Positions 12,001-15,000 of a stretch of 64,000 bases of DNA are shown here, one piece after another. A program made the position numbers. This stretch comes from Escherichia coli (GTDB taxonomy: Bacteria; Pseudomonadota; Gammaproteobacteria; Enterobacterales; Enterobacteriaceae). Where the stretch lies: the NCBI RefSeq assembly GCF_003334765.1, contig NZ_QOWT01000005.1; one strand, given 5' to 3'. How positions within the stretch are numbered: position 1 is the stretch's first letter; each line of letters starts with the position of its first letter.

Positions 12001-15000
12001 TTATTGCGCTGATTATCATGCTCTTAGCCCAGGGTGTGCAGGCACACAATTTCGTCACTGGCAAAACGGTTACCCCCGTTTATATCCAGGAAGGCGGCGA
12101 GCTGCTTCTGAATAGCGACGACGAAATTCACTACCAAAAGTGGAACAGCACACAGCTGGCGGGAAAAGTCCGCATTATCCAGTATATCGCCGGGCGTAAG
12201 TCGGCGAAGAAAAAGAACTCACTGTTAATTAAAGCGGTTGAAGCGGCAAACTTTCCGCAGGATCGTTTTCAGCCCACCACCATTGTGAACACCGATGATG
12301 CCATCTTTGGTACTGGCTATTTTGTCGTTGGCAAAATCGAAAAAAATAAACGCCGCTATCCGTGGGCGCAATTCGTTATTGACGGCAATGGACTGGGACG
12401 CGTTGCCTGGCGGTTGCCGGAGCAGAGTTCAACCATTCTGGTGCTGAATAAAGACGGGCAAATTCAGTGGGCAAAGGACGGCAGCCTGACGCCGGAAGAG
12501 GTAGATCATGTCATTGCGCTGGCGCAGAAACTGATCAATGAATAAAAAATTCAAAGGATTGAGGGTGTTAGTGAGATGAAGCTGGTTGAACACTACATCA
12601 TGCGTGGTACGCGCCGTCTGGTGCTGATTATCGTCGGTTTTCTGATCTTTATTTTCGCCAGCTACTCCGCACAGCGTTATCTGACCGAAGCGGCAAATGG
12701 GACCTTAGCTCTTGATGTTGTGCTGGATATCGTTTTCTACAAAGTGCTGATTGCACTGGAGATGTTGTTACCTGTTGGTCTGTATGTGTCAGTTGGCGTG
12801 ACGCTAGGGCAGATGTATACCGACTCGGAAATTACCGCTATCTCTGCGGCGGGGGGCAGTCCGGGACGCTTGTACAAAGCCGTTCTTTATCTGGCGATAC
12901 CGCTAAGTATTTTTGTCACCCTTCTGTCGATGTATGGTCGGCCGTGGGCTTATGCGCAGATTTATCAACTGGAGCAACAGTCGCAGTCGGAGCTGGATGT
13001 TCGCCAGTTGCGGGCAAAGAAATTTAACACTAACGATAACGGACGAATGATCCTTTCGCAGACGGTTGATCAGGATAATAATCGCCTGACTGACGCGCTG
13101 ATTTATACTTCTACTGCCAATCGAACCCGCATTTTCCGCGCCCGTTCGGTTGATGTGGTTGACCCATCACCTGAGAAACCGACCGTTATGTTGCATAACG
13201 GGACCGCCTATCTTCTCGATCATCAGGGGCGTGACGACAACGAACAGATCTACCGTAATCTGCAATTACATCTGAATCCGCTGGATCAAAGCCCTAACGT
13301 CAAACGCAAAGCAAAATCGGTCACGGAGCTGGCGCGCTCCGCCTTTCCTGCCGATCATGCCGAACTGCAATGGCGACAAAGCCGTGGCCTGACAGCATTG
13401 TTGATGGCGCTGCTGGCCATTTCATTAAGTCGGGTAAAACCGCGGCAAGGGCGATTTTCAACGTTATTGCCACTGACGTTGCTGTTTGTTGCCATTTTTT
13501 ATGGCGGCGACGTCTGCCGTACGCTGGTGGCTAACGGTGCGATTCCCCTCATTCCTGGTTTGTGGTTAGTACCCGGACTCATGCTAATGGGCCTGCTGAT
13601 GCTGGTCGCACGCGACTTCTCTTTGCTGCAGAAATTTTCCCGATGAATGTTTTCAGTCGCTATTTAATCCGTCATCTCTTTCTCGGTTTTGCCGCCGCCG
13701 CAGGGCTATTGCTGCCGCTTTTTACCACCTTCAACCTGATTAACGAACTGGATGATGTCAGCCCGGGCGGTTATCGCTGGACTCAGGCGGTGCTGGTGGT
13801 GCTGATGACCTTACCGCGTACACTGGTCGAACTTTCGCCGTTTATCGCATTATTGGGAGGGATTGTTGGCCTGGGGCAGTTATCGAAAAACAGTGAGCTT
13901 ACCGCCATTCGCAGCACTGGGTTTTCTATCTTCCGTATTGCACTGGTGGCGCTGGTTGCCGGGATATTGTGGACTGTTTCGTTAGGCGCGATAGATGAGT
14001 GGGTGGCGTCGCCATTGCAGCAACAGGCGCTGCAAATCAAATCGACTGCCACCGCGTTGGGGGAGGACGATGACATTACCGGCAATATGCTTTGGGCCAG
14101 GCGCGGTAATGAATTTGTGACGGTGAAATCGCTGAACGAGCAGGGCCAGCCTGTGGGCGTGGAGATATTTCATTATCGCGACGATCTCTCGCTCGAATCC
14201 TACATTTTTGCACGCAGTGCCTCCATTGAAGACGACAAAACGTGGATCCTGCATGGTGTGAATCATAAAAAATGGTTGAATGGCAAAGAAACGCTGGAAA
14301 CATCAGATAATCTTGCCTGGCAATCGGCCTTCACCAGTATGGATCTTGAAGAGTTATCGATGCCGGGGAATACTTTTTCTGTCCGTCAGCTTAATCATTA
14401 CATCCATTATTTGCAGGAAACCGGACAACCCAGCAGCGAATACCGCCTTGCACTGTGGGAAAAACTGGGGCAACCGATCCTGACCCTGGCGATGATTTTG
14501 CTGGCTGTGCCGTTCACCTTTAGCGCCCCGCGCTCGCCAGGGATGGGTAGCCGTCTCGCTGTAGGCGTCATCGTTGGCTTACTCACCTGGATCAGCTATC
14601 AAATCATGGTCAATCTGGGGTTGCTATTTGCGTTGAGTGCACCTGTTACCGCGCTCGGTTTACCGGTAGCGTTTGTGCTGATGGCGTTGAGCCTGGTGTA
14701 TTGGTATGACAGACAACATTAAACCCGCCGTGGCGCAACACCACGGCGGGCTCACATTACTGCTTCAGAGTAGCAAATGCCTGAATGATGGCATCGATTT
14801 GCTCATGACTGTGGGCAGCGTTTACGCTACAGCGCAGCAGAGTGATGCCTGCAGGCGCGGCAGGTGGCAGGATAAGATTCACATAAACGCCCAGCGAAAT
14901 AAGCTCGCGCCAGATGCGTAAACCGTCCTCTTTCGAACCGATTATTACCGGCACTACCGGGCTAATATGTGAACTTAACTCATAACCCAGTTTTTGCAGA

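What the first reader, a model, noticed from the sequence alone, without database searches (positions are those of the whole stretch)
12576..14722. Second LptF/LptG-like permease pair with no adjacent LptB-type ATPase
Two adjacent, translationally coupled genes encode proteins with the YjgP/YjgQ (LptF/LptG) architecture and N-terminal patterns resembling LptF and LptG. The essential LptFG pair normally lies elsewhere in E. coli; here a paralogous pair sits inside a lipid biosynthesis cluster with no ABC ATPase gene nearby. It may extract a different lipid from the inner membrane, powered by the housekeeping LptB or by another ATPase.
Basis: partly seen in the sequence, partly recalled or inferred. 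Interest (0 to 1): 0.7.

Follow-up and report, generated by a model that had tools for sequence, protein, structure and literature searches.

The report
Second LptFG pair, sphingolipid locus
Most natural E. coli strains (but not K-12) carry a second, divergent copy of the two membrane proteins that extract lipopolysaccharide from the inner membrane, sitting inside a sphingolipid-synthesis gene cluster and most likely exporting that lipid; a 2026 preprint has already described this arrangement in Caulobacter and drawn the E. coli locus.

Summary
Window 12576-13646 and 13643-14722 (ATGA overlap) encode a full-length LptF-type and a full-length LptG-type permease (Pfam PF03739, E 2.6e-54 and 1.4e-68). 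They are 29% and 28% identical to K-12 LptF and LptG.

They are true paralogues. The pepA-linked housekeeping lptFG is in 5426 of 5426 complete E. coli genomes, and this pair is in 4132 of 5426. K-12 lost it through an IS5-associated deletion between yghQ and yghO.

The pair ends a yghS-yghR-yghQ-orf274-ytfJ-like operon. That operon converges on spt-acpR-SDR-aasR, next to yghO, which the literature treats as the ceramide synthase homologue.

Linkage to spt holds in 54 of 68 related loci from Enterobacterales, Pseudomonas, Azotobacter, Nitrococcus and betaproteobacteria. No locus has a stand-alone LptB, LptC or LptA gene.

The glutamates that dock LptB are invariant, and dN/dS is 0.04-0.08.

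It shows that Caulobacter LptF2/LptG2 bind the housekeeping LptB, and it draws the E. coli UTI89 locus. The feature is real and interesting but already known. E. coli function is untested.

The parts
12576..13646 (+). lptF2: LptF-type permease paralogue, 356 aa
   Evidence: PF03739 E 2.6e-54. TIGR04407 319.8 bits. PDB LptF chains E 6e-32 against LptG 7e-6. 29% identity to K-12 LptF. The coupling-helix Glu85 (equivalent to LptF E84) is invariant in 55 of 55 relatives.
13643..14722 (+). lptG2: LptG-type permease paralogue, 359 aa, with start overlapping the lptF2 stop (ATGA)
   Evidence: PF03739 E 1.4e-68. TIGR04408 305.1 bits. PDB LptG chains E 1e-41. 28% identity to K-12 LptG. AF2 model pLDDT 82.6, TM 0.84 to 6MIT_G. 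Glu85 (equivalent to LptG E88) is invariant in 55 of 55.
14720..14754 (.). 16-bp-stem GC-rich hairpin between the convergent lptG2 and spt genes; likely a bidirectional terminator
   Evidence: Terminator scan. It lies between the lptG2 stop (14722) and the spt stop (14757).
7385..8077 (-). yghT: dTMP-kinase-like P-loop protein, divergent from yghS
   Evidence: Weak TIGR00041 match, far below cut-off. Annotation.
8251..8964 (+). yghS: dTMP-kinase-like P-loop paralogue, first gene of the + strand operon
   Evidence: Promoter-like site at 8173-8201.
8996..9754 (+). yghR: dTMP-kinase-like P-loop paralogue
9800..11149 (+). Full-length yghQ, a MOP-family flippase candidate (449 aa); truncated by IS5 in K-12
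   Evidence: Weak NF007773 MOP flippase match, and Polysacc_synt Pfam on orthologues. K-12 homology ends at window 10868.
11149..11973 (+). orf274: conserved cytoplasmic helical protein with a CHAD-like (polyphosphate-binding) fold
11982..12545 (+). YtfJ-family protein whose N-terminus looks like a signal peptide
   Evidence: TIGR01626 216 bits, above cut-off 151. The signal peptide is read from the hydrophobic N-terminus MMSSRLIIALIIMLLAQGVQA, not from a prediction tool.
14757..15929 (-). spt: serine palmitoyltransferase
   Evidence: NF047599 599.4 bits, cut-off 500. 99.2% identical to BL21(DE3) ECD_02854, shown active in PMC9386255.
15929..16177 (-). acpR: dedicated acyl carrier protein
   Evidence: ACP models. 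100% identical to BL21 AcpR ECD_02853.
16209..17123 (-). SDR/epimerase-family reductase (epi / CerR homologue)
   Evidence: ECD_02852 is the homologue of CC_1164.
17120..18844 (-). aasR: fatty acyl-AMP ligase / acyl-AcpR synthetase
   Evidence: NF006624 871 bits. Homologue of BL21 ECD_02851.
19215..20357 (+). yghO: homologue of Caulobacter CC_1154 (acyl-CoA N-acyltransferase / bacterial ceramide synthase)
   Evidence: Assignment taken from PMC9386255, Fig. 9 legend. No Pfam or NCBIfam hit here. Co-occurs with spt in 50 or more related loci.

Best explanation
These genes encode LptF2/LptG2, a dedicated paralogue of the LptFG transmembrane extractor that belongs to the E. coli sphingolipid locus (yghT to yghO, partly deleted in K-12).

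Proposed pathway, with the status of each step:
1. AasR, AcpR, Spt, the SDR reductase and YghO make (dihydro)ceramide at the cytoplasmic face. The first three enzymes have been shown active for the BL21 proteins.
2. The YghR/S/T, Orf274 and YtfJ-like module decorates it with an unknown head group, probably phosphate-containing. This is inferred.
3. YghQ, a MOP-type flippase, flips it to the periplasmic leaflet. This is inferred.
4. The LptF2-LptG2 heterodimer extracts it from the inner membrane and passes it through its periplasmic beta-jellyroll domains towards the outer membrane. This is inferred.
5. The housekeeping LptB dimer, docked on the conserved coupling helices, supplies the energy. 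This is inferred from Caulobacter, where co-purification with LptB was shown.
6. Periplasmic transit presumably uses the housekeeping LptC/A/D/E bridge, because no paralogues of these are in the locus. This is inferred.
For: - Family and fold. Pfam, NCBIfam and PDB sequence hits cover the full length. The LptG2 AF2 model has six TM helices plus a beta-jellyroll and aligns to LptG chains at TM 0.81-0.84.
- Paralogy. The housekeeping pair is in 5426 of 5426 genomes and this pair in 4132 of 5426. Identity between them is 28-29%.
- Separate clade. In an NJ tree of 50%-identity representatives, LptG2 groups with spt-linked proteins and apart from a 62-member clade holding K-12 LptG.
- Conserved linkage through rearrangement. 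Of 68 genomic loci with LptG2 at 40% identity or more, 54 carry spt within 10 kb. Most of the rest are truncated or still carry SDR/FAAL/yghO. In Serratia the spt operon lies on the other side of the cluster. In Pseudomonas, Azotobacter, Nitrococcus and Methyloversatilis the yghRSTQ module is absent, yet lptF2G2 stays with spt.
- No LptB, LptC or LptA gene in any of the 79 loci. The Pseudomonas 'LptB-like' hits are the NBD of a 577-aa MsbA-like TMD+NBD protein.
- LptB docking. The coupling-helix glutamates (LptF E84 and LptG E88, required for LptB binding; PMC5082905) are invariant in 55 of 55 LptF2 and 55 of 55 LptG2 sequences.
- Purifying selection. dN/dS is 0.04-0.08 within Escherichia.
- Neighbouring enzymes. 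They are 96-100% identical to BL21(DE3) proteins, of which AasR, AcpR and SPT were shown active (PMC9386255).
- Caulobacter precedent. LptF2/G2 are deletable only when spt or cpgB is deleted, and they co-purify with each other and with the sole LptB. The E. coli UTI89 locus is drawn as homologous.
Against: - No experiment exists on the E. coli pair. None of the papers read here reports a sphingolipid from E. coli, and I know of none.
- The locus is dispensable and repeatedly lost: the K-12 IS5 deletion, two deletions in strain SW07091, and a GspC-LptG2 fusion protein in another strain.
- I could not obtain the Caulobacter LptF2/G2 sequences. Orthology, as opposed to an independent duplication that became attached to spt separately, was therefore not tested.
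- In E. coli the pair is co-transcribed with yghSRQ-orf274-ytfJ rather than with spt.
- Conserved coupling-helix glutamates are a family-wide feature, so they permit LptB use but do not prove it.
Confidence: 0.72

Rival explanations
1. The pair exports a non-sphingolipid product of the enterobacterial yghS-yghR-yghQ-orf274-ytfJ module, for example a phosphorylated glycolipid or polyprenyl-linked molecule. On this reading its adjacency to spt is secondary.
For: In E. coli, Hafnia and Serratia the pair is the distal end of that operon, with small or overlapping intergenic gaps. It converges on, or lies apart from, the spt operon.
Against: In Pseudomonas, Azotobacter, Stutzerimonas, Nitrococcus and betaproteobacterial loci yghQ, orf274 and ytfJ are absent, and the yghRST kinases are absent from most. 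Even so, lptF2G2 remains within 10 kb of spt-acp-SDR-FAAL-yghO.
Confidence: 0.08
2. It is a back-up or alternative LPS exporter, for example for modified lipid A. This would match the PGAP names 'LptF' and 'LptG'.
For: Both proteins exceed the NCBIfam equivalog cut-offs for LptF and LptG. The overall fold is the same as LptG.
Against: Identity to the housekeeping pair is only 28-29%. The pair forms a distinct clade that tracks spt rather than LPS genes. It is absent from K-12 and 24% of E. coli with no known LPS defect.
Confidence: 0.05
3. It is a cryptic, decaying locus with no present function in E. coli.
For: There are recurrent independent deletions. No E. coli sphingolipid is reported in the papers read. 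The locus is dispensable in laboratory strains.
Against: The ORFs are intact and match orthologues in length across families. dN/dS is 0.04-0.08 for lptF2, lptG2, spt and yghQ. The pair is retained in 76% of complete genomes. The BL21 enzymes are active when expressed.
Confidence: 0.08
4. The pair is energised by an ATPase other than LptB: one of the neighbouring P-loop proteins YghR/S/T, or an unlinked orphan ABC ATPase.
For: Three 'ATP-binding protein' genes lie in the same cluster. The genome outside the window could not be searched for divergent LptB paralogues.
Against: YghR/S/T resemble nucleoside/nucleotide monophosphate kinases (weak dTMP-kinase matches), not ABC nucleotide-binding domains. 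They are missing from most non-enterobacterial lptF2G2 loci. The coupling-helix motif that docks LptB is invariant. Caulobacter LptF2/G2 pull down LptB, and no second lptB exists in that genome.
Confidence: 0.07

Closest known systems
Caulobacter crescentus LptF2/LptG2 (CCNA_01214/CCNA_01213 = CC_1156/CC_1155), named in PMC11324152 and characterised in bioRxiv 10.64898/2026.04.12.717747
   Same: It is a second F-type plus G-type permease pair encoded inside the sphingolipid locus alongside a housekeeping pair. There is no lptB in the locus, and a candidate flippase gene is nearby. The preprint draws the E. coli UTI89 locus as homologous and says lptF2/G2 occur in many alpha- and gammaproteobacterial sphingolipid loci.
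   Different: E. coli has no LptC2; the preprint says lptC2 is restricted to Caulobacter. The head-group genes differ: YghR/S/T, Orf274 and YtfJ-like here, against CpgA-D in Caulobacter. Nothing has been tested in E. coli. Sequence-level orthology was not checked here.
Housekeeping E. coli LptB2FGC lipopolysaccharide extractor (lptF b4261, lptG b4262)
   Same: Same Pfam family, same six-TM plus beta-jellyroll fold, adjacent overlapping F and G genes, and conserved coupling-helix glutamates.
   Different: Identity is 28-29%. The pair studied here is not universal in E. coli (76% against 100%) and not essential, since it is absent from K-12. It is linked to spt rather than to pepA, and forms a different clade.
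Pseudomonas/Azotobacter-type spt clusters with lptF2G2
   Same: They share the core spt-acp-SDR-FAAL, yghO and lptF2-lptG2, at 47-62% identity.
   Different: They use an MsbA-like ABC half-transporter instead of the YghQ MOP flippase. They carry a DAGK-type lipid kinase and an OlsC/LpxO-like hydroxylase downstream of lptG2, and lack orf274 and ytfJ.

Membership tests
LptF/LptG (YjgP/YjgQ, PF03739) permease family | Full-length match to the family profile | tested here: met
   PF03739 covers residues 7-345 and 6-352, with E 2.6e-54 and 1.4e-68. TIGR04407 and TIGR04408 are both above their cut-offs.
LptF/LptG (YjgP/YjgQ, PF03739) permease family | Six TM helices with a periplasmic beta-jellyroll between TM3 and TM4 | tested here: met
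   The LptG2 AF2 model (pLDDT 82.6) has strands at 150-227 flanked by helices. Foldseek gives TM 0.84 to 6MIT_G and 0.81 to 6MJP_G. LptF2 was checked by sequence only: it aligns to PDB LptF chains over residues 4-353.
LptF/LptG (YjgP/YjgQ, PF03739) permease family | One F-type and one G-type subunit from adjacent genes | tested here: met
   Reciprocal best matches are F to LptF and G to LptG. The genes overlap as ATGA.
LptF/LptG (YjgP/YjgQ, PF03739) permease family | Conserved coupling-helix glutamate that docks LptB (LptF E84, LptG E88) | tested here: met
   LptF2 E85 and LptG2 E85 align to E84 and E88. They are invariant in 55 of 55 relatives each. The functional role is taken from PMC5082905.
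LptF/LptG (YjgP/YjgQ, PF03739) permease family | Physical complex with an LptB dimer | not testable with these tools
   This needs co-purification or a multimer prediction. It has been shown only for the Caulobacter pair.
Housekeeping LPS extractor LptFG (functional equivalog) | Universal and essential in the species; LPS as substrate | tested here: not met
   The pair is absent from 1294 of 5426 complete E. coli genomes, including K-12 MG1655. The pepA-linked pair is in all of them. The substrate itself was not tested.
Sphingolipid-locus LptF2/LptG2 | Coexists with a separate housekeeping lptFG in the same genome | tested here: met
   every one of the 5426 genomes has the housekeeping pair, including the 4132 that carry this pair.
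Sphingolipid-locus LptF2/LptG2 | Encoded within or next to the spt / acpR / aasR / reductase / ceramide-synthase cluster | tested here: met
   Shown for the window and for BL21(DE3). Of 68 related loci, 54 have spt within 10 kb. Metagenomic relatives P0126 and P0140 are also spt-linked.
Sphingolipid-locus LptF2/LptG2 | No dedicated LptB-type ATPase in the locus | tested here: met
   tblastn with K-12 LptB finds only KpsT in the window. Across the 79 loci it finds only 25-35% identity hits. Those in Pseudomonas lie next to spt and, in the one locus examined, are the NBD of an MsbA-like protein; the others lie outside the cluster.
Sphingolipid-locus LptF2/LptG2 | Sequence orthology to CCNA_01214/CCNA_01213 | not tested
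   The Caulobacter sequences could not be retrieved. A profile search and a plasmid tblastn gave no alphaproteobacterial hits. This point rests on Fig. 2B of the preprint.
Sphingolipid-locus LptF2/LptG2 | Deletion tolerated only when (anionic) sphingolipid synthesis is blocked | not testable with these tools
   This is a genetic experiment, done only in Caulobacter.
Sphingolipid-locus LptF2/LptG2 | Accompanying LptC2 | tested here: not met
   No LptC homologue was found in the window or in any of the 79 loci. The preprint itself states that lptC2 is restricted to Caulobacter, so this is not a defining feature of the wider family.

The most novel reading that the evidence does not exclude
Most natural E. 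coli and many other Enterobacterales make a so-far-undetected outer-membrane sphingolipid, overlooked because K-12 lost the locus. Its head group is built by an enterobacteria-specific module: three dTMP-kinase-like P-loop paralogues (YghR/S/T), a CHAD-like and therefore possibly polyphosphate-binding protein (Orf274), and a periplasmic YtfJ-like protein. The head group would be phosphate-rich and chemically new. LptF2G2 exports this lipid by sharing LptB and the Lpt bridge with LPS, so two lipids compete for one ATPase and one bridge in the best-studied Lpt system.
Probability: 0.2. Interest if true: 0.7.

Novelty: already known. Interest (0 to 1): 0.33.

Why it matters
E. coli is the reference organism for LPS transport and is usually described as having only three major phospholipids and no sphingolipids. 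Yet three quarters of sequenced strains, including BL21(DE3), carry a complete sphingolipid cluster under purifying selection with its own LptFG-type extractor. If the pair shares LptB and the periplasmic bridge with LPS export, E. coli would be the most tractable system for two questions. One is how a single ATPase serves two extractors. The other is how bacterial sphingolipids reach the outer membrane. There is also a practical point: PGAP names both pairs 'LptF' and 'LptG', which hides the paralogy. The conceptual advance has, however, already been made in Caulobacter.

Tried and rejected
1. Lysine signature. I tested whether LptG2 lacks the enterobacterial LptG TM1 lysines (K34, K40, K41) that I recalled as lipid A phosphate contacts. 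LptG2 has N/D, D and D at these positions. Non-enterobacterial housekeeping LptGs also mostly lack the lysines, so this is not a diagnostic substrate signature and I dropped it. The supporting literature search failed to run.

2. Caulobacter or Sphingomonas sequences for a direct orthology test.
   - A profile search with distant LptG2 members returned only 37 unnamed or gammaproteobacterial proteins.
   - tblastn against plasmids gave no alphaproteobacteria.
   - The single genome-contig scan reached gamma- and betaproteobacteria only.

4. YghR/S/T as ceramide kinases of the CpgB type. Rejected, because CpgB is a DAGK-family enzyme with a GGDG motif, whereas YghR/S/T are dTMP-kinase-like P-loop proteins. 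A PDB sequence search with YghR gave nothing.

5. PADLOC defence models on orf274, yghO, yghR and ytfJ-like gave nothing meaningful.

6. Pfam on YghO and Orf274 gave no hits.

7. The promoter scan found no more promoter-like sites than in shuffled sequence. Only the site upstream of yghS and the strong hairpin after lptG2 were used.

8. A search for an orphan LptB paralogue elsewhere in the genome was not possible, because there is no protein-mode search of E. coli genomes and the genome outside the window is not available.
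Full report
**Observation**

- The first is window 12576-13646 (+, 356 aa, ATG preceded by GAGGG).
- The second is window 13643-14722 (+, 359 aa). Its ATG overlaps the upstream TGA as ATGA.
- A longer GTG ORF from 13562 exists, but all orthologues and PGAP use the 359-aa form.
- Each protein matches Pfam PF03739 (LptF_LptG) over its whole length, with E 2.6e-54 and 1.4e-68.
- The first is F-type: TIGR04407 gives 319.8 bits against 68.9 for the LptG model, and PDB LptF chains score E 6e-32 against 7e-6 for LptG.
- The second is G-type: TIGR04408 gives 305.1 bits, and PDB LptG chains score E 1e-41 against about 1e-3 for LptF.
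- An AlphaFold2 model of the second protein (41-sequence alignment, pLDDT 82.6) shows six long helices around a beta-sandwich at residues 150-227. It superposes on solved LptG chains at TM 0.81-0.84.

**Paralogy**

- The proteins are 29% and 28% identical to K-12 LptF and LptG and barely similar to each other.
- The pepA-adjacent K-12 lptFG DNA is found in 5426 of 5426 complete E. coli genomes.
- The DNA of this pair is found in 4132 of 5426, once per genome at the median.
- It is therefore a genuine second pair, not the housekeeping one.
- PGAP nevertheless calls it 'LptF' and 'LptG', because both proteins exceed the NCBIfam equivalog cut-offs.

**Context**

The window is E. coli chromosome, 99.8% identical to strain PF9285 over the first 28.7 kb. 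The pair lies between pitB and glcC, in the ygh region.

On the + strand, yghS, yghR, full-length yghQ (MOP-type flippase), a 274-aa unknown, a YtfJ-family protein whose N-terminus looks like a signal peptide, lptF2 and lptG2 follow one another. The gaps between them are 45 bp or less, or the genes overlap. A promoter-like site precedes yghS, and a 16-bp-stem hairpin sits right after lptG2.

Converging on that hairpin is a second operon on the opposite strand:
- a fatty acyl-AMP ligase (NF006624, 871 bits);
- an SDR/epimerase;
- an acyl carrier protein;
- serine palmitoyltransferase (NF047599, 599 bits, above cut-off).

yghO is divergent from it.

MG1655 lacks window 10869-19254. IS5 sits between a truncated yghQ and yghO, which explains why this pair is unknown from K-12.

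BL21(DE3) has the complete locus, with proteins 96-100% identical to those in the window.

Padilla-Gomez et al. (PMC9386255) worked on the BL21 proteins.
- They showed that ECD_02851 (AasR), ECD_02853 (AcpR) and ECD_02854 (SPT) form 3-oxo-sphinganine.
- They list ECD_02852 and yghO (ECD_02850) as homologues of the Caulobacter reductase and N-acyltransferase.

The 'lipid biosynthesis cluster' is therefore specifically the bacterial sphingolipid cluster.

**No ATPase in the locus**

tblastn with K-12 LptB, LptC and LptA against the whole window gives only one weak hit. It is KpsT (28% identity over 164 aa) at 48653-49330, in the group 2 capsule locus 34 kb away.

The three 'ATP-binding' neighbours YghR/S/T are dTMP-kinase-like P-loop proteins, not ABC nucleotide-binding domains.

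**Relatives elsewhere**

Close orthologues of LptG2 (63-75% identity) occur in Escherichia albertii, Shimwellia, Hafnia, Citrobacter, Pseudocitrobacter, Pluralibacter, Serratia, Erwinia, Pantoea, Sodalis and Klebsiella indica.

In Hafnia the gene order is the same as here. In Serratia the spt operon has moved to the other side of the yghT-lptG2 block but stays adjacent.

An exhaustive search of 50%-identity representatives and a neighbour-joining tree place E. coli LptG2 in a clade separate from a 62-member clade that contains K-12 LptG.
- Members of the LptG2 clade at 45%, 37% and 37% identity (P0126, P0131, P0140) lie beside an LptF gene in clusters carrying a DAGK-type kinase and a CDP-alcohol phosphatidyltransferase. 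For P0126 and P0140 the Aminotran_1_2, PP-binding, Epimerase and AMP-binding genes of an spt operon are also present; the P0131 contig is too short to show them.
- More distant hits show other contexts: one next to an MsbA-like gene and one next to a stand-alone ABC ATPase.

One scan of 100,044 species genomes returned 79 loci. I screened them by tblastn with all cluster proteins.
- Of 68 loci with LptG2 at 40% identity or more, 54 have spt within 10 kb.
- Most of the remaining 14 are cut short or still show the SDR, FAAL and yghO genes.
- Pseudomonas, Azotobacter, Stutzerimonas, Nitrococcus, Methyloversatilis and other betaproteobacterial loci keep spt-acp-SDR-FAAL, yghO and lptF2-lptG2.
- Those same loci lack yghQ, orf274 and ytfJ.
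- In Pseudomonas marginalis, a 577-aa MsbA-like TMD+NBD protein follows spt. A DAGK-type lipid kinase and an OlsC/LpxO-like hydroxylase follow lptG2.
- The recurrent 29-35% 'LptB' hits in the Pseudomonas loci lie next to spt. In the one locus examined in detail, the hit is the NBD of that flippase-like protein. No locus has a stand-alone LptB, LptC or LptA.

**Mechanistic inference**

The glutamates of the coupling helices (LptF E84, LptG E88) are needed for LptB binding and function (PMC5082905). They align to E85 in both paralogues and are invariant in 55 of 55 spt-linked LptF2 and 55 of 55 LptG2 sequences. The surrounding E-x-T-A-x-x-A/x-x-G motif is also conserved.

By my own count on the BLASTP alignments, the coupling-helix segments are about 55% and 42% identical to the K-12 proteins. 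Overall identity is 28-29%. This is compatible with docking onto the same LptB but does not prove it.

dN/dS within Escherichia is 0.04-0.08 for lptF2 and lptG2. Values for spt and yghQ are similar. The genes are therefore maintained by selection.

**What is known**

Olea-Ozuna et al. (PMC11324152) named CC_1168, CC_1156 and CC_1155 as LptC2, LptF2 and LptG2, and proposed that they transport phosphosphingolipids.

Uchendu, Isom and Klein (bioRxiv 10.64898/2026.04.12.717747, April 2026) report the following:
- lptF2, lptG2 and lptC2 can be deleted only in spt or cpgB deletion backgrounds;
- LptF2 and LptG2 co-purify with each other and with the sole LptB;
- lptF2/G2 occur in many alpha- and gammaproteobacterial sphingolipid loci.

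Their Fig. 2B shows the E. coli UTI89 operons with homologous genes coloured alike.

I could not retrieve the Caulobacter sequences, so sequence orthology with the characterised pair is not independently tested.

**Verdict**

The best explanation is a sphingolipid-dedicated LptF2G2 extractor that borrows LptB and probably the rest of the Lpt bridge. The main uncertainty is that nothing has been measured in E. coli and that the locus is often lost.

Besides the K-12 deletion, strain SW07091 has lost orf274'-lptG2 and aasR'-gspD. A GspC-LptG2 fusion protein in the database points to another deletion.

Because both the kind of system and this E. coli locus have already been described, I rate it already known, with moderate residual interest. 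Two things remain open: what the head-group module makes, and whether the pair functions in E. coli.

**Surroundings worth noting**

- Orf274 occurs with the three kinase-like paralogues only in the enterobacterial version of the cluster. This suggests a phosphate-rich head group, which is speculative.
- LptG2-type genes also occur on large plasmids of Klebsiella michiganensis, Rahnella aquatilis and several Pseudomonas strains.

Noticed in passing
[not shown]
   Followed up: partly
window 7385-8077 (-), 8251-8964 (+), 8996-9754 (+): YghT, YghS and YghR are three mutually 33-42% identical dTMP-kinase-like P-loop paralogues of unknown substrate. They are not related to the DAGK-type ceramide kinase CpgB, and they may be head-group kinases of the enterobacterial sphingolipid.
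   Followed up: partly
window 10869-19254, compared with K-12 (L003): MG1655 has IS5 in place of this 8.4-kb segment. The deletion truncates yghQ and removes orf274, ytfJ-like, lptF2, lptG2, spt, acpR, the SDR gene and aasR. This explains why K-12 has orphan yghQ/R/S/T and yghO genes of unknown function.
   Followed up: yes
L094 (E. coli SW07091), and protein P0023: There are independent losses of the pair. SW07091 has one deletion from orf274 to the last 65 bp of lptG2, and a second from aasR into gspD. A 456-aa E. coli protein in the database combines a GspC N-terminal domain with 72% of LptG2, which implies another deletion fusion.
   Followed up: partly
L054 (Pseudomonas marginalis) 699-2429 (-) and 11089-13819 (+): The pseudomonad version of the cluster replaces the MOP flippase YghQ with a 577-aa MsbA-like ABC half-transporter directly downstream of spt. 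It also adds a DAGK-type lipid kinase, an unknown 321-aa protein and an OlsC/LpxO-like hydroxylase after lptG2.
   Followed up: partly
plasmid hits H24-H28: lptF2/lptG2-type genes are carried on large plasmids of Klebsiella michiganensis (301 kb), Rahnella aquatilis (467 kb), Pseudomonas veronii (374 kb) and two other Pseudomonas plasmids (125-136 kb). This suggests horizontal mobility of the cluster.
   Followed up: no
window 12576-14722 and public annotation: NCBI PGAP names this pair 'LPS export ABC transporter permease LptF/LptG', identically to the housekeeping pair, because both exceed the TIGR04407 and TIGR04408 equivalog cut-offs. Genomes with the locus therefore appear to have duplicate lptF and lptG genes.
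   Followed up: yes
window 12576-14722 compared with L015: Synonymous divergence between this window and another genome labelled E. coli (L015) is high for a within-species comparison: dS 0.22 for lptF2 and 0.50 for lptG2. Most E. coli genomes are only 95-99% identical in DNA across the pair, which could reflect old alleles or recombination.
   Followed up: no
window 30414-47252: The sslE lipoprotein metalloprotease gene is followed by the complete gsp type II secretion operon (pppA, gspS2, gspC-M/yghD). It is 97.8% identical to strain PF9285, where an IS1 element precedes sslE.
   Followed up: no
window 47820-62168: This is a group 2 capsule (kps) locus. kpsM and kpsT lie on the + strand, followed by a low-GC region 2 (31-37% GC, about 49.5-54.1 kb) that encodes a 1169-aa protein and a 332-aa protein. 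kpsS, C, U, D, E and F lie on the - strand. The region differs from the corresponding region of strain PF9285 beyond window 47252.
   Followed up: no
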